Shown piece after piece: positions 35,802-39,921 of a stretch of 64,000 bases of DNA; within the stretch, counting starts at the first letter, position 1; every line of letters starts with the position of its first letter. The position numbers were made by a program, and so were the translations under genes. The stretch is taken from assembly GCF_057098645.1 (NCBI RefSeq), contig NZ_CM169472.1; one strand, 5' to 3'. The notes under the pieces were generated by a model. The model had not been told where the DNA came from, did no database searches, and was given only the letters and a program-made list of their open reading frames with translations.

Positions 35802-36980
35802 TTATTTTAAATGACTATAGTCATATGCAACATCATAGAAGTCTTTATAATCCAACTTTTCATAAGTTAAAAAATCTTTAATGATTTTAACAATACTATT
35901 CATTACATCATTATTATAGTAAGGATTATGAGCATTTTTTACACGTTCAATGAAACTTTTCTGTTGTGAATAAGCAATGGCACATTCTATACTTTCTTTT
36001 TTACATATGGTATCTATTACCGAATCACCTCTAACCCTTCCTTTTTGGCGATCGCCTATATTAATCGTCGGAACCTTTAAGCTTGGAACCTCAATTAACC
36101 CAGATGACGAATTGCCTATTAAGCCATATGAATATTTTATCAAAGCTAGATATTCTTCAGGTCTCACAGAAATCATATATCGACAGCCATATACTCTACA
36201 AAAATCGAGAGTCATTTCTCTTATTTGTTCTGAACCAGTATCAGCATTTGAGCCAATAAAGATATAATCGTATTCTTCGCTAAAACTAGCTAATGCTTCT
36301 AGTAATTCTAAATACTGCTCTCTAACAGGTAAAGTTGATAACGTTTCAGGATGAAATACGACTACGAAATATTTTCTATTTAACCCACCGTACTTATTTT
36401 CAAGCTCCTTTTTAGAGGGTAATTCTAGTTGCAAACTGTTTTCAGCCCCTAGCGCACCTACATTAAATACACAATTAGGATCTTCACCAAGTTGGATAAC
36501 CCTTTTCCGATATTCATCAGTTGATACTAGATGTAGACGACTCATTTTCGTTATTGAATGTCGTATAAATTCATCATAATTCCCTAACGTTTTCTCTCCA
36601 CCATGAAGATGAATAATAGGTAGGTTATGCATAGAAGCTGCTACTGCCACTGAAAATATTTCGTATCGATCACCTAATATAATGACAGCATCATATTTTT
36701 TCTCTTGGAAATGCTCACCAAATGCTTGTTGGCATATCGACATCGTTTTCAAAACATCTGCGTTGGTTTTATTTTTCAGCTGCAAATCAATTAATTTTTC
36801 AATTAAGAAACCATCATTCTCGATTGTTTTATATGTATAACCATATTCAGAATCGCAATGCATACCTGTTGCAATAATTGATAAATCAATATCAGGATCA
36901 TCTTTTAGACTTTTTAATAGTCGTTTCATAATACCGTACTCAGCTCTTGAGCCGGTGACATAGAGCAATTTTCTTTTCAT
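35802..36980 (-). CDS. neuC: UDP-GlcNAc 2-epimerase (hydrolysing), ManNAc-forming, NeuC type
   Basis: 392-aa ORF, MKRKLLYVTGSRAEYG start typical of NeuC/SiaA. Confidence 0.85.
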   Translation of the reverse strand: MKRKLLYVTGSRAEYGIMKRLLKSLKDDPDIDLSIIATGMHCDSEYGYTYKTIENDGFLIEKLIDLQLKNKTNADVLKTMSICQQAFGEHFQEKKYDAVIILGDRYEIFSVAVAASMHNLPIIHLHGGEKTLGNYDEFIRHSITKMSRLHLVSTDEYRKRVIQLGEDPNCVFNVGALGAENSLQLELPSKKELENKYGGLNRKYFVVVFHPETLSTLPVREQYLELLEALASFSEEYDYIFIGSNADTGSEQIREMTLDFCRVYGCRYMISVRPEEYLALIKYSYGLIGNSSSGLIEVPSLKVPTINIGDRQKGRVRGDSVIDTICKKESIECAIAYSQQKSFIERVKNAHNPYYNNDVMNSIVKIIKDFLTYEKLDYKDFYDVAYDYSHLK

Positions 36981-38242
36981 TTTAAGATACTCGAAATATC
37001 ATTTTCTAACTGTTTGTAAGCTTGTAACGTGAAATGTAAACCATCATAAGTATAATTTTCATTCAGATTGCCGAACTCATCATAAAAAGATGGAGATAAC
37101 GGCATCCAAATAACATTGTCTAATTTACTAAAATATTGTTTCATTGCCAGATTTAATTTATTGATAGTATTATTATCCCTATCAACTCTTCCTCGAACAG
37201 GCGGCACTGCTAGCAGAATGATAGTAACATCAGGATTTATAATTTTTACTCTATTGATCAGATTTTTTGTCCATTTTATAGTGTATTCAATAGTCCAACC
37301 ATCGTTCACAATGTCGTTTGTGCCTGAAATTAATAGCACATACTTACCTATATTGGTGAGCATGTTTTTTTCAATGATGTATTTGTAATATTTTTCGCTA
37401 TCAATGCCAGCAATGCCTAAATTGTTAACCTTAATTCCACATATGTTGCTGAGATCCCAATAATCAAAAATTGAATGTCCAATCAGTGTAATTTGCTCAA
37501 CTTTGTTAAATAAATCTTTTTTATCGACAATTCGTTTGATAATAGCATTATCCAATAAATTTTTTTTATTTTTTTTTGTTTGGATTAGAATTGCCAATTC
37601 AAAATCTAACTGATCATCGATATCAATAGAATCTTCTTTATTCATAATATAGGCTATACTGTCAGCACCAAAGAAATGTTTTTGTCTTAAATAATTAGAA
37701 ACATAACCAATAAAAATCGCACCATTTGGACAGTATTCTTTTTTATTTTGTCTACGATATGTACTAAAATCACAGTCAAAGTTCCTTAATGACAGTGAAT
37801 TATCAATTGGTTTAATTAACGCCGAACTTTTATCACTTTCTACCACAGACACCAAAAATTTTGCTTCGTGATTATTTTCAAATTGCTCAACAGCATTCTT
37901 AATATGCTTATAATTACGAAATGGTGATGTTGGTTGTAGAAGCACAAAATAATCATATCCTGGACATTTTTCAAGCACATCTTGAACTACCATAAAAGAT
38001 GTTGCCGAATCCGACGATAATTCTTTTGTGCGTAATATTACTTCCGCGCCATATTTCTCTGCAATATATTTATATTCTAATGAATCTGTTGAAACAATAA
38101 TTTTATCAAATATATTAGAGCTAATCGCTGCTTCGATAGTATAAGCAATTAATGGGCGATCCAATAACATTAGTATATTTTTATTTCGTAAGCCCTTAGA
38201 TCCAGACCGAGCAGGTATAATGGCAATTTTTTTTAATGACAC
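36977..38242 (-). CDS. neuA: CMP-N-acetylneuraminic acid synthetase with C-terminal SGNH esterase-like domain (bifunctional NeuA type)
   Basis: 421-aa ORF; N-terminal cytidylyltransferase (IAIIPARSGSKGL); about 190 extra C-terminal residues consistent with the acetylhydrolase domain of bifunctional NeuA. Confidence 0.85.
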   Translation of the reverse strand: MSLKKIAIIPARSGSKGLRNKNILMLLDRPLIAYTIEAAISSNIFDKIIVSTDSLEYKYIAEKYGAEVILRTKELSSDSATSFMVVQDVLEKCPGYDYFVLLQPTSPFRNYKHIKNAVEQFENNHEAKFLVSVVESDKSSALIKPIDNSLSLRNFDCDFSTYRRQNKKEYCPNGAIFIGYVSNYLRQKHFFGADSIAYIMNKEDSIDIDDQLDFELAILIQTKKNKKNLLDNAIIKRIVDKKDLFNKVEQITLIGHSIFDYWDLSNICGIKVNNLGIAGIDSEKYYKYIIEKNMLTNIGKYVLLISGTNDIVNDGWTIEYTIKWTKNLINRVKIINPDVTIILLAVPPVRGRVDRDNNTINKLNLAMKQYFSKLDNVIWMPLSPSFYDEFGNLNENYTYDGLHFTLQAYKQLENDISSILK

Positions 38243-38245
38243 AAC

Positions 38246-39286
38246 TCAAACCTCTTGTTTACTAAAATCAGAGTGCTCAATTAGTTGATCCTCATCAAAA
38301 TCCTTTTCAGCTATTTTACCTAAGACCTCATACCAGTACATTGGACTAATTCCGTTTCCTGGTCGCTTTGTCGTAATATTTTCCGTCGTAAAAATATCTC
38401 CTTTTTTTATTGCACATTTAGCAACAATTGATTTTCGAGCTACTACTTTATTCTTTCGTTCTGAATTTGTTACTAACTTTTCATAGCTACCAAGTGAAAT
38501 TTCTACTGCACGTATTCCTTCGCATAGTAATTTAAGTTCCTCAGGTGTAACTGATGCTTTATGATCTGGACCTTCAAAATTTTTATCCAGTGTAAAATGT
38601 TTCTCAATAAAAGTGATCCCATAAGGCACTGATGCAATACCAGCAAAATAACCTGGAGAATGATCAGAAAATCCAATATTATATTGACTAAATATTTTTT
38701 TGAATCCAGAAATTGTATTTAGATTTACATCTTCAAATGGCGTTGGATACTCTGTATTACAATGTAATATTGTTATATTTCTATGTGTAATGCCATTATC
38801 AATAAAAACCTTTAATGCCAAATTGATTTCATCAACTGTTGCCATACCAGTTGATAGTACAATTTTTTTATCTTCGATTGGCAATTTGGCTATTTTCTCT
38901 AAATATGGTAAATTTAATAATTCGCCTGATGGAATCTTCCAAACTTTTTGATTTCTGGATGCAAGAAAATCGATTGAATCAAAATCAAATGGTGTTGAGA
39001 AGACATCCAACCCAAGTTCTTTTGCATATTCTTCCAGCTTGATAAACTCATCATATGGCAACTCTAACTTACGAGTCATCTCTAATTGAGTCTCTTCATT
39101 ACCGGTAACTTTTATTTGATATTCTGCTTTAGGAGCATATTTTGAGATAAGTTGCTCAGCTTTAAAAGTTTGGAATTTTACTGCATCTACCCCGGCAGAT
39201 TTTGCCTCTTTTACCATTTTCTTAGCTAACTCGAAATCTCCGTTATGATTACAACCAATTTCAGCAACAATATAAATTCTCGACAT
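38246..39286 (-). CDS. neuB: N-acetylneuraminate synthase
   Basis: ORF 38246..39298; probable start MSRIYIVAEIGCNHNGD; 346 aa. Confidence 0.9.
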   Translation of the reverse strand: MSRIYIVAEIGCNHNGDFELAKKMVKEAKSAGVDAVKFQTFKAEQLISKYAPKAEYQIKVTGNEETQLEMTRKLELPYDEFIKLEEYAKELGLDVFSTPFDFDSIDFLASRNQKVWKIPSGELLNLPYLEKIAKLPIEDKKIVLSTGMATVDEINLALKVFIDNGITHRNITILHCNTEYPTPFEDVNLNTISGFKKIFSQYNIGFSDHSPGYFAGIASVPYGITFIEKHFTLDKNFEGPDHKASVTPEELKLLCEGIRAVEISLGSYEKLVTNSERKNKVVARKSIVAKCAIKKGDIFTTENITTKRPGNGISPMYWYEVLGKIAEKDFDEDQLIEHSDFSKQEV

Positions 39287-39294
39287 AATAAAAA

Positions 39295-39921
39295 TCACCT
39301 TGCTCTAATAAACTTTGTAGGAGCCCCGGCCACTACTACATTGTCAGGAACATCACGAATAACTACAGAACCAGAACCAATAATTGATGAATTACCTATC
39401 TTTAGTTGCCCATTAACAACGGTACAACTTCCTATAAAGGATTTTTCCCCAACGAATACATCACCATTAAGAACAACATTAGTAGAGATATTTGTACAAT
39501 ATGATATATAATTCCCATGCTCTACTAATGCTCTTGTGTTTATCACCACTCCATCTTCTAGTTCTGAATCACAGTTAATGATAGCCATTTTCCCTATATA
39601 AATGCAGGTACCAAGCCTAGAATGTTCAGAAATTATAGATGTTCTGTCAATTACATTGATAGTTGAAAGTTTCATTTCTTCTATTAACTTCATCCATAAG
39701 GCTCTGTAATCGGGATCTCCAATTGCAATAAAGTATAGGTATTGGTTAGGTTCGTCTATGACACCTAAAGTATCACCTAAAATAGGGTATCCTTGATGCT
39801 CACCTGTTTTAAATGTATCAATGAACCCTTCTATTTCATACTTTTCATGATCCAAACTGTCAATTACAGTTTTAGCAAAACCACCAGCACCAATAATTAT
39901 TAATTTTTGCTTCATATTCAT
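39295..39921 (-). CDS. neuD: Hexapeptide-repeat acetyltransferase, NeuD family
   Basis: 208-aa ORF with N-terminal Rossmann-like IIGAGGFAK and C-terminal left-handed beta-helix repeats. Confidence 0.8.
   Translation of the reverse strand: MNMKQKLIIIGAGGFAKTVIDSLDHEKYEIEGFIDTFKTGEHQGYPILGDTLGVIDEPNQYLYFIAIGDPDYRALWMKLIEEMKLSTINVIDRTSIISEHSRLGTCIYIGKMAIINCDSELEDGVVINTRALVEHGNYISYCTNISTNVVLNGDVFVGEKSFIGSCTVVNGQLKIGNSSIIGSGSVVIRDVPDNVVVAGAPTKFIRAR

What the first reader, a model, noticed from the sequence alone, without database searches (positions are those of the whole stretch)
36977..39921. Bifunctional NeuA (synthetase plus esterase domain) together with a NeuD acetyltransferase suggests O-acetyl-sialic-acid cycling
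The neuA ORF is about 420 aa, roughly 190 residues longer than a cytidylyltransferase alone, consistent with the SGNH acetylhydrolase extension of bifunctional NeuA proteins. With the hexapeptide-repeat NeuD upstream, the locus could both acetylate and de-acetylate Neu5Ac before transfer, which would affect antigenicity.
Basis: partly seen in the sequence, partly recalled or inferred. Interest (0 to 1): 0.4.

Follow-up and report, generated by a model that had tools for sequence, protein, structure and literature searches.

The report
Standard sialic-acid genes of E. coli O145

Summary
Window 36977-39921 (minus strand) holds three genes: neuD, a PglD_N plus hexapeptide acetyltransferase; neuB, a Neu5Ac synthase; and a 421-aa neuA. 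neuC follows directly.

NeuA has an N-terminal CMP-Neu5Ac synthetase domain and a C-terminal SGNH/GDSL esterase domain. The esterase keeps all its catalytic residues: Ser257, Gly276/Gly279, Asn309, Asp400 and His403. These are invariant or nearly so in 106 homologues. The AlphaFold model matches CMP-Neu5Ac synthetases and PAF-acetylhydrolase-type esterases.

The DNA is 100% identical to E. coli O145:H28 genomes, so this is the published O145 O-antigen cluster (nnaD/B/C/A). The same four-gene cassette, with the same two-domain NeuA, occurs in the K1/K92-type capsule locus and in O104. A review reports it in all five Neu5Ac-containing E. coli O antigens.

The NeuD/NeuA acetylate-then-deacetylate cycle on monomeric or CMP-activated sialic acid was shown experimentally in E. 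coli K1, group B Streptococcus and S. suis. The mechanism proposed here is therefore inferred by homology and is not new.

Whether it leaves O-acetyl groups on the O145 antigen, and so changes antigenicity, is untested. In K1 this route gives only 2-4% O-acetylation. Verdict: real, correctly read, already known, low interest.

The parts
39295..39921 (-). neuD (nnaD): NeuD-family acetyl-CoA-dependent sugar acetyltransferase. It is the first gene of the O-antigen operon. RefSeq starts it at the second Met (39915). The catalytic-type His135 is at 39517-39519.
   Evidence: Pfam PglD_N plus Hexapep. TIGR03570 NeuD_NnaD scores 188.5 bits against a cutoff of 160.8. It is 60% identical to NeuD of a K1/K92-type locus and 75% to O104 NeuD. 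His135 aligns with His141 of PerB, the residue replaced in the PerB variant entry 4eaa.
38246..39298 (-). neuB (nnaB): N-acetylneuraminate synthase. RefSeq starts it at the ATG at 39286.
   Evidence: Pfam NeuB plus SAF. The TIGR03569 NeuB_NnaB equivalog scores 467 bits (cutoff 399.65), whereas PseI falls below its cutoff.
37577..38242 (-). neuA (nnaC), N-terminal domain (aa 1-222): CMP-Neu5Ac synthetase.
   Evidence: PF02348, E 1.4e-33. phmmer against PDB CMP-Neu5Ac synthetases gives 1eyr at 3.3e-32 and 6ifd at 4.3e-32. Foldseek gives 6ifd and 1eyr at E about 1e-21, TMt about 0.8. R12, K21, Q103, D207 and D209 are invariant in 106/106 homologues.
37499..37576 (-). neuA linker (aa 223-248): part of the long helix (H211-240 in the model) that joins the two domains. 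It is the least conserved segment.
   Evidence: AlphaFold2 secondary structure. Identity to homologues in this segment is 27-50% for most, against 44-90% in the two domains.
36977..37498 (-). neuA C-terminal domain (aa 249-421 plus stop): SGNH/GDSL sialate O-acetylesterase domain. Catalytic codons are Ser257 at 37472-37474, Gly276 at 37415-37417, Asn309 at 37316-37318, Asp400 at 37043-37045 and His403 at 37034-37036.
   Evidence: PF13472, E 1e-10. phmmer matches 2hsj, PAF-AH Ib and sialate O-acetylesterase 6njc. Foldseek gives 2hsj at TMt 0.80 and PAF-AH at 0.72-0.74. S257, N309 and D400 are present in 106/106 homologues and H403 in 105/106. Codons were checked.
35802..36980 (-). neuC (nnaA): hydrolysing UDP-GlcNAc 2-epimerase. 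Its ATG overlaps the neuA stop codon (ATGA).
   Evidence: Pfam Epimerase_2. TIGR03568 NeuC_NnaA scores 445 bits against a cutoff of 235.9. The overlap was read.
40008..40018 (-). ops element (GGCGGTAGCGT) in the non-coding stretch between galF and neuD, where the JUMPStart sequence is expected. It marks neuD as the first gene of the RfaH-dependent O-antigen operon.
   Evidence: A single exact match in the window, with 0.01 expected by chance. Sequence context was read.
31978..33234 (-). 418-aa orphan protein, the likely Neu5Ac transferase that uses the CMP-Neu5Ac made by this cassette. It has an N-terminal hydrophobic helix followed by a GT-B fold.

Best explanation
This is the canonical neuD-neuB-neuA-neuC (nnaD-B-C-A) CMP-sialic-acid cassette at the head of the E. 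coli O145 O-antigen operon.

The proposed pathway is as follows. NeuC makes ManNAc from UDP-GlcNAc. NeuB condenses ManNAc with PEP to give Neu5Ac. NeuD O-acetylates free Neu5Ac at O7/O9 using acetyl-CoA. The N-terminal domain of NeuA activates the sugar with CTP. The C-terminal SGNH domain of NeuA (Ser257/Asp400/His403, with Gly276/Asn309 as the oxyanion hole) removes most of the O-acetyl groups from the free or CMP-bound sugar. The downstream GT-B protein then transfers the sugar onto L-FucNAm-GlcNAc-PP-undecaprenol.

What is shown here is gene identity, domain architecture, intact catalytic residues, and identity to published O145 genomes. What is inferred by homology is the enzymatic activities and the acetylate/de-acetylate order. 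The net level of O-acetylation on the O145 antigen is unknown. Going by the K1 precedent, it is probably low.
For: - The region is 100% identical over 2945 nt to 21 O145 and O145:H28 genomes. Its context is galF-ops-neuDBAC-wzx-wzy-...-gnd.
- Family assignments are above curated cutoffs.
- NeuA aligns along its full length with the NeuA of a K1/K92-type capsule locus (52%) and with O104 NeuA (56%). All four SGNH blocks are invariant and conserved in 106 homologues.
- The structure model has pLDDT 87 and both domains match the expected folds.
- NeuD keeps the catalytic-type His.
- Literature: K1 NeuA is a bifunctional synthetase/O-acetylhydrolase, NeuD acetylates free Neu5Ac, the NeuA esterase recycles CMP-O-acetyl-Neu5Ac, and a neuD deletion loses the capsule (PMC8653822). 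GBS NeuD/NeuA set O-acetylation levels, and the esterase-dead N301A mutant gives high O-acetylation (PMC8319020; PMC5512079). nnaABCD genes are present in all five Neu5Ac-containing E. coli O-antigen clusters, including O145 (PMC7685785).
Against: - No biochemical data exist for the O145 proteins themselves.
- Block I reads G-H-S rather than the textbook G-D-S. This is a family trait shared with the active K1 enzyme (105/106 homologues).
- Pfam aligns only profile positions 36-177 of PF13472, so block I was identified through the family alignment and the 2hsj alignment, not through the Pfam hit.
- The order of steps differs between reports. It is free sugar in GBS (PMC8319020) and CMP-sugar in S. 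suis and K1 (PMC8653822).
- The O-acetyl status of the O145 antigen could not be checked, because Feng et al. 2005 is not held.
Confidence: 0.85

Rival explanations
1. The NeuD/NeuA balance leaves a substantial and possibly variable fraction of 7/9-O-acetylated Neu5Ac in the O145 polymer, so the cycle tunes antigenicity, phage recognition and lectin recognition.
For: - GBS shows exactly this behaviour: an esterase-dead NeuA gives high O-acetylation (PMC5512079; PMC8319020).
- O145 NeuD is closer to O104 NeuD (75%) than to K1 NeuD (60%).
- A review says O-acetylated derivatives such as Neu5Ac,7Ac,9Ac occur among the five Neu5Ac-containing O antigens (PMC7685785). From memory, this is the O104 antigen, whose cluster holds no acetyltransferase other than the NeuD homologue.
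Against: - In K1 the NeuD route alone yields only 2-4% O-acetylation (PMC8653822).
- Held reviews list the O145 sugar simply among Neu5Ac-containing antigens.
- O104 NeuA also has an intact esterase, so gene content alone does not predict the outcome.
- No O145-specific chemistry was retrievable.
Confidence: 0.25
2. The C-terminal domain of NeuA is not a sialate esterase in this organism. It could be a structural or oligomerisation module, or it could act on another acetyl ester, such as the PAF-like lipids for which activity was first reported. On this view NeuD is needed only to support NeuB and sialic acid synthesis.
For: - The K1 domain was first described as having PAF-acetylhydrolase activity (Liu et al. 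2004, as cited in PMC8653822).
- The nearest solved structures are PAF-AH-type enzymes, not named sialate esterases.
- A neuD deletion abolishes the K1 capsule altogether, so NeuD has a role beyond decoration.
Against: - Strict conservation of Ser257, Asn309, Asp400 and His403 in 105-106 of 106 homologues argues for a retained hydrolytic activity.
- The domain is always fused to a CMP-sialate synthetase and sits next to neuD.
- Sialate esterase activity was shown for the K1, GBS and S. suis orthologues.
Confidence: 0.07
3. The cassette makes a different nonulosonic acid, pseudaminic or legionaminic acid, rather than Neu5Ac. NeuD would then be an N-acetyltransferase of that pathway.
For: - The best NCBIfam hit of NeuA is PseF (146 bits).
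- NeuD belongs to the NeuD/PglB/VioB family, whose solved members are N-acetyltransferases.
Against: - The PseF hit is below its cutoff of 205.7.
- NeuB passes the NeuB_NnaB equivalog cutoff and fails PseI. NeuC passes NeuC_NnaA.
- PDB CMP-Neu5Ac synthetases match at about 1e-32, against 9e-17 for the CMP-Pse synthetase.
- No aminotransferase or dehydratase genes for a Pse/Leg pathway adjoin the cassette.
- The O145 antigen is reported to contain Neu5Ac (PMC7685785).
Confidence: 0.01

Closest known systems
E. coli K1 capsule region-2 genes neuDBAC (NeuA bifunctional CMP-Neu5Ac synthetase/O-acetylesterase; NeuD O-acetyltransferase)
   Same: Same gene order, neuD-neuB-neuA-neuC. NeuA is 52% identical along its full length with identical SGNH blocks. 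NeuD is 60% identical. The experimentally supported acetylate, activate, de-acetylate scheme is described in PMC8653822 and PMC8319020.
   Different: Here the cassette heads a Wzx/Wzy-dependent O-antigen operon between galF and gnd, not a kps group-2 capsule locus. The product is a single internal Neu5Ac per repeat rather than polysialic acid. No NeuO-type polymer O-acetyltransferase is present, and neuE/neuS are absent.
E. coli O104 (= K9) O-antigen nnaD-B-C-A genes
   Same: Same position directly downstream of galF/ops, same order, and a two-domain NeuA of the same length (1266 nt). NeuA is 56% identical and NeuD 75%.
   Different: The sialyltransferase differs: a GT52 enzyme in O104 against an unclassified GT-B protein here. 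The repeat unit also differs. From memory, the O104 antigen carries 7,9-di-O-acetylated Neu5Ac; the status of O145 could not be verified.
Group B Streptococcus NeuD/NeuA O-acetylation cycle
   Same: Same two activities and the same logic: NeuD acetylates monomeric sialic acid and the NeuA esterase domain trims it before incorporation (PMC8319020). The N301A esterase-dead mutant raises O-acetylation (PMC5512079). Asn309 of block III here is the likely counterpart.
   Different: It is a Gram-positive capsule with terminal alpha2,3 sialic acid. The GBS sequence was not retrieved, so the residue correspondence (N301 to N309) is an inference.
SGNH hydrolases of the PAF-acetylhydrolase Ib type (1wab, 1bwp, 3dt8) and S. 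pneumoniae 2hsj
   Same: Same fold (TMt 0.72-0.80) and the same four conserved blocks with Ser, Gly, Asn, and Asp-x-x-His.
   Different: Those are stand-alone proteins of about 210-230 aa with a GDS block I. Here the domain is fused behind a cytidylyltransferase through a long helix, and block I reads GHS.
Homologous clusters in Citrobacter (86% and 83% NeuA identity) and Salmonella enterica (75%)
   Same: Same two-domain NeuA. The orphan 418-aa transferase also has its closest relatives in Salmonella and Citrobacter. From memory, Salmonella O48 has an O antigen closely related to O145.
   Different: Different species. Their gene contexts were not examined here.

Membership tests
Bifunctional NeuA (CMP-Neu5Ac synthetase + sialate O-acetylesterase, E. 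coli K1 type) | N-terminal CMP-sialic acid synthetase domain with conserved nucleotide- and Mg-binding residues | tested here: met
   PF02348, E 1.4e-33. 1eyr and 6ifd match at about 1e-32. Foldseek TMt is about 0.8. R12, K21, Q103, D207 and D209 are invariant.
Bifunctional NeuA (CMP-Neu5Ac synthetase + sialate O-acetylesterase, E. coli K1 type) | C-terminal SGNH/GDSL domain fused in the same polypeptide | tested here: met
   PF13472 is above its gathering score. phmmer and Foldseek match 2hsj and PAF-AH. The top 120 homologues all carry PF02348, and all but three short entries labelled partial also carry PF13472.
Bifunctional NeuA (CMP-Neu5Ac synthetase + sialate O-acetylesterase, E. coli K1 type) | Catalytic Ser-Asp-His triad and oxyanion Gly/Asn in blocks I, II, III and V | tested here: met
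   S257, G276/G279, N309, D400 and H403 are present. They are conserved in 105-106 of 106 homologues.
Bifunctional NeuA (CMP-Neu5Ac synthetase + sialate O-acetylesterase, E. coli K1 type) | Full-length collinear homology to the characterised K1 enzyme | tested here: met
   52% identity over the whole length: 55% in the N domain and 50% in the C domain. The comparator comes from a K1/K92-type polysialic acid locus.
Bifunctional NeuA (CMP-Neu5Ac synthetase + sialate O-acetylesterase, E. coli K1 type) | Hydrolysis of O-acetyl esters of (CMP-)Neu5Ac | not testable with these tools
   This needs an enzyme assay. It is known for the K1, GBS and S. suis orthologues only.
NeuD sialic acid O-acetyltransferase (TIGR03570 NeuD_NnaD) | Match to the NeuD/NnaD family model above its cutoff, with PglD_N plus left-handed beta-helix architecture | tested here: met
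   188.5 bits against a cutoff of 160.8. PglD_N plus Hexapep. Note that the model is a subfamily model named NeuD/PglB/VioB, so it does not by itself fix the substrate.
NeuD sialic acid O-acetyltransferase (TIGR03570 NeuD_NnaD) | Conserved active-site His of the PglD/PerB class | tested here: met
   His135 (E-H-G-N) is invariant across the O145, K1-type and O104 proteins. It aligns with PerB His141, the residue replaced in the PerB variant entry 4eaa.
NeuD sialic acid O-acetyltransferase (TIGR03570 NeuD_NnaD) | Placement as the first gene of a neuDBAC cassette | tested here: met
NeuD sialic acid O-acetyltransferase (TIGR03570 NeuD_NnaD) | Acetyl-CoA-dependent O-acetylation of free Neu5Ac | not testable with these tools
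   Biochemical. Reported for the GBS and K1 orthologues.
E. coli O145 O-antigen gene cluster | Sequence identity to O145 reference genomes, including the O145-specific wzx and wzy | tested here: met
   100% identity over 2945 nt to O145:H28 genomes. The neighbouring genes are annotated as O145 family flippase and polymerase.
Polymer-level sialate O-acetyltransferases (NeuO / OatC / OatWY type) | A second acetyltransferase gene in or beside the sialic acid locus | tested here: not met
   Between galF and gnd, no acetyltransferase other than NeuD appears in the RefSeq annotation of the identical cluster or in the Pfam scans. An unlinked or prophage-borne gene outside the window cannot be excluded.

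The most novel reading that the evidence does not exclude
The O145 O antigen carries a labile, strain- or condition-dependent fraction of 7/9-O-acetylated Neu5Ac. On this reading the level is set by the balance between NeuD and the NeuA esterase, and it has been missed or under-reported because O-acetyl groups are lost during LPS work-up. Such a fraction would modulate O145 serotyping sera, phage depolymerase recognition, sialidase resistance and Siglec engagement in a major non-O157 STEC serogroup.
Probability: 0.2. Interest if true: 0.35.

Novelty: already known. Interest (0 to 1): 0.1.

Why it matters
Very little is new. The O145 cluster was sequenced and its antigen structure published in 2005. 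The bifunctional nature of NeuA and the NeuD/NeuA O-acetyl cycle were worked out in K1, GBS and S. suis between 2004 and 2011.

The practical points are modest.

- RefSeq labels this NeuA only as a 'cytidylyltransferase domain-containing protein', and a major review lists NnaD as an 'N-acetylneuraminic acid synthetase'. The esterase and acetyltransferase functions are therefore easy to overlook in O-antigen annotation.
- The actual O-acetylation state of sialic acid in O145 LPS, a 'big six' STEC serogroup, would matter for diagnostics, vaccines and phage receptor work if it turned out to be appreciable.

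Tried and rejected
- **Primary papers.** I tried to read Feng et al. 2005 on the O145 structure and cluster (PMC543545), Lewis et al. 2007 (PMC2588433), Steenbergen et al. 2006 (PMC1595355) and Czuchry et al. 2015 (PMC4652054). None is held. The supplements of the Liu et al. review are not held either. The O-acetyl status of O145 and O104 therefore rests on review statements and my memory.
- **Literature searches.** Searches for O145 with O-acetyl or FucNAm, and for Toucra/O48, gave no structural detail.
- **GBS NeuA.** The sequence could not be obtained from the available collections without an expensive scan. I therefore used the NeuA of a K1/K92-type capsule locus, taken from an annotated genome, as the characterised comparator.
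- **Pseudaminic/legionaminic acid reading.** Rejected. The PseF and PseI hits are below their cutoffs, while the NeuB, NeuC and NeuD equivalogs are above theirs.
- **Plus-strand ORFs inside the region** (37116-37388, 38700-38951, 39245-39511; 83-90 aa). They are antisense to well-supported genes in AT-rich DNA and were given no weight.
- **Promoter scan.** It found no more sites than shuffled sequence (28 against 26.7), so there is no support for an internal promoter.
- **Triad geometry.** I could not measure it in the AlphaFold model, because coordinates are not exposed.

Full report
**1. What is at the coordinates**

The interval 36977-39921 holds three consecutive minus-strand ORFs.
- A 208-aa ORF at 39295-39921. 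RefSeq starts it two codons later, at 39915.
- A 346/350-aa ORF at 38246-39286/39298.
- A 421-aa ORF at 36977-38242 with a GTG start.

A 392-aa ORF (35802-36980) follows, and its ATG overlaps the stop of the 421-aa ORF as ATGA. Only 3 nt separate the stop of the second ORF from the GTG of the third.

Pfam and NCBIfam identify them as follows.
- NeuD: PglD_N plus hexapeptide repeats; TIGR03570 at 188.5 bits against a cutoff of 160.8.
- NeuB: TIGR03569 at 467 bits against 399.65.
- NeuA.
- NeuC: TIGR03568 at 445 bits against 235.9.

The region has 30-34% G+C, against about 50% in the flanks. That is usual for O-antigen clusters.

**2. Where the window comes from**

The 2945 nt are 100% identical to 21 complete E. 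coli O145 and O145:H28 genomes, and at least 99% identical to 37. In RM12581 the region is annotated galF, acetyltransferase, neuB, cytidylyltransferase domain-containing protein, neuC, O145 wzx, O145 wzy, hypothetical protein, the FucNAm genes, a GT4 glycosyltransferase, a WbuC-family protein, then gnd.

An ops element (GGCGGTAGCGT) lies at 40008-40018 on the minus strand, between galF and neuD, where the JUMPStart sequence is expected. neuD is therefore the first gene of the O-antigen operon.

This is the published O145 O-antigen cluster. The Liu et al. review states that nnaABCD genes for CMP-Neu5Ac synthesis are present in all five Neu5Ac-containing E. coli O-antigen clusters: O24, O56, O104, O145 and O171 (PMC7685785).

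**3. The NeuA extension**

NeuA carries PF02348 at residues 6-193 (E 1.4e-33) and PF13472, GDSL-like lipase/acylhydrolase, at residues 272-410 (E 1e-10, above the gathering score).

Against PDB sequences, the N-terminal half matches CMP-Neu5Ac synthetases of N. meningitidis and V. cholerae, which are 228-251 aa, at about 1e-32. The C-terminal half matches the S. pneumoniae PAF-acetylhydrolase-like protein 2hsj, other GDSL proteins, PAF-AH Ib subunits and a sialate O-acetylesterase, 6njc.

An AlphaFold2 model (mean pLDDT 87.1) shows two alpha/beta domains joined by a long helix at residues 211-240. Foldseek matches the two domains separately: 6ifd and 1eyr at TMt about 0.8, and 2hsj (TMt 0.80) and PAF-AH (TMt 0.72-0.74).

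**4. Catalytic residues**

I aligned O145 NeuA with ten two-domain homologues from Citrobacter, Kluyvera, Aliivibrio, Aeromonas, E. albertii, Edwardsiella, Yersinia and Fusobacteriaceae. The NeuA of a K1/K92-type capsule locus (52% identity) and O104 NeuA (56%) were also included. All four SGNH blocks are invariant.
- Block I: G255-H256-S257.
- Block II: N274, G276 and G279 (N273 is invariant in this 12-sequence set but varies in the larger one).
- Block III: G307-T308-N309-D310.
- Block V: D400-G401-L402-H403.

In a 106-sequence alignment, S257, N309, D310 and D400 are present in 106/106, H403 in 105/106 and G276 in 105/106. The codons were verified in the window.

The 2hsj alignment places IGDSI opposite IGHSI and TDGLH opposite YDGLH. 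Block I reads GHS rather than GDS. This is a family trait (105/106) shared with the K1 enzyme.

**5. NeuD**

O145 NeuD is 60% identical to the K1-type NeuD and 75% to the O104 protein. Its invariant E-H-G-N motif places His135 opposite His141 of perosamine N-acetyltransferase PerB, the residue replaced in the PerB variant entry 4eaa.

The solved relatives are N-acetyltransferases, and no NeuD structure turned up. O-acetylation of Neu5Ac is therefore inferred from the characterised GBS and K1 orthologues, not from the fold.

**6. How it most likely works**

The held literature describes the mechanism for close relatives.

In E. coli K1, NeuA is a bifunctional CMP-Neu5Ac synthetase/O-acetylhydrolase. 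NeuD O-acetylates free Neu5Ac. The synthetase domain activates O-acetyl-Neu5Ac, and the esterase domain regenerates CMP-Neu5Ac. Only 2-4% O-acetylation survives into the polymer, and a neuD deletion loses the capsule (PMC8653822).

In GBS, NeuD acetylates monomeric sialic acid and the NeuA esterase removes the ester before or after CMP activation, setting capsule O-acetylation (PMC8319020). An esterase-dead NeuA N301A gives high 7-O-acetylation (PMC5512079).

By homology the O145 proteins should do the same. The step order and the activities are inferred. The gene identities, architecture and catalytic residues are shown.

**7. What cannot be concluded**

The presence of neuD together with an esterase-bearing neuA does not predict the O-acetyl content of the final antigen. 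K1, O104 and O145 all have both genes, with intact catalytic residues. Yet K1 polysialic acid is almost unacetylated without NeuO. From memory, the O104 antigen contains 7,9-di-O-acetyl-Neu5Ac.

No second acetyltransferase lies between galF and gnd. I could not obtain the O145 structure paper. My recollection is that it reports plain Neu5Ac in the repeat Neu5Ac-L-FucNAm-GlcNAc; treat this as unverified. The claim about antigenicity is therefore open, and I rate substantial O-acetylation at roughly 0.2-0.25.

**8. Rivals considered**

- A non-esterase or structural role for the C-terminal domain is unlikely, given the strict conservation of the catalytic residues and the experimentally shown activity of the orthologues.
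- A pseudaminic/legionaminic pathway is excluded by the family scores, by the PDB ranking, and by the absence of the other pathway genes.

**9. Side observations**

- An IS1 element (41477-42174) sits between galF and wcaM and replaces the 3' end of wcaM. The same insertion is present in O145:H28 RM12761 and RM13516 but not in RM12581.
- The only gene of the cluster without any family assignment is the 418-aa ORF at 31978-33234. It has just 24 homologues, all labelled hypothetical or uncharacterised or left unnamed.
- It has invariant H342-P343 and S376-T377, which resemble the HP motif and the Ser-Ser pair of bacterial GT-B sialyltransferases (PMC4202792). By elimination it is the Neu5Ac transferase, and it appears to belong to no described family in the libraries searched.

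**10. Verdict**

However, it describes the standard, published sialic-acid cassette of a published O-antigen cluster, and a mechanism already established in relatives. Novelty: already known. Interest: low.

Noticed in passing
window 41477-42174 (+), with wcaM ORF 42109-43485 (-): An IS1 element (insA/insB-type ORFs) is inserted between galF and wcaM. It replaces the last codons of wcaM: the ORF here is 458 aa with an IS-derived tail, against 464 aa for intact WcaM in RM12581. The same insertion is present in O145:H28 RM12761 and RM13516 (99.8% over 2701 nt) and absent from RM12581. It is therefore a lineage marker and might impair colanic acid synthesis.
   Followed up: partly
[not shown]
   Followed up: partly
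window 40008-40018 (-) and 40145-40161 (-): The ops element GGCGGTAGCGT lies upstream of neuD. A terminator-like hairpin with a T-run lies just after galF. Together they suggest that the O-antigen operon starts in the galF-neuD gap.
   Followed up: partly
window 36977-36980 and 38243-38245: The genes are packed tightly. The neuC ATG overlaps the neuA TGA (ATGA), and only 3 nt separate the neuB stop from the GTG start of neuA. This suggests translational coupling within the cassette.
   Followed up: no
proteins P0093, P0104, P0105: Several large clusters of Salmonella enterica NeuA entries are only 276-283 aa, carry PF02348 alone, and are labelled 'partial'. I did not determine whether these are contig-end truncations or real esterase-less alleles in Salmonella O48-type clusters.
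   Followed up: no
protein P0070: One of the 106 two-domain NeuA homologues has Asn in place of the catalytic His403 (DGLNF). It may be a naturally esterase-dead variant or a sequencing error.
   Followed up: no
annotation of window 36977-38242 and 39295-39915: RefSeq names NeuA only 'cytidylyltransferase domain-containing protein' and NeuD only 'acetyltransferase'. The Liu et al. review glosses NnaD as 'N-acetylneuraminic acid synthetase'. The best NCBIfam hit for NeuA is PseF, below its cutoff. No curated equivalog model seems to cover bifunctional NeuA.
   Followed up: no
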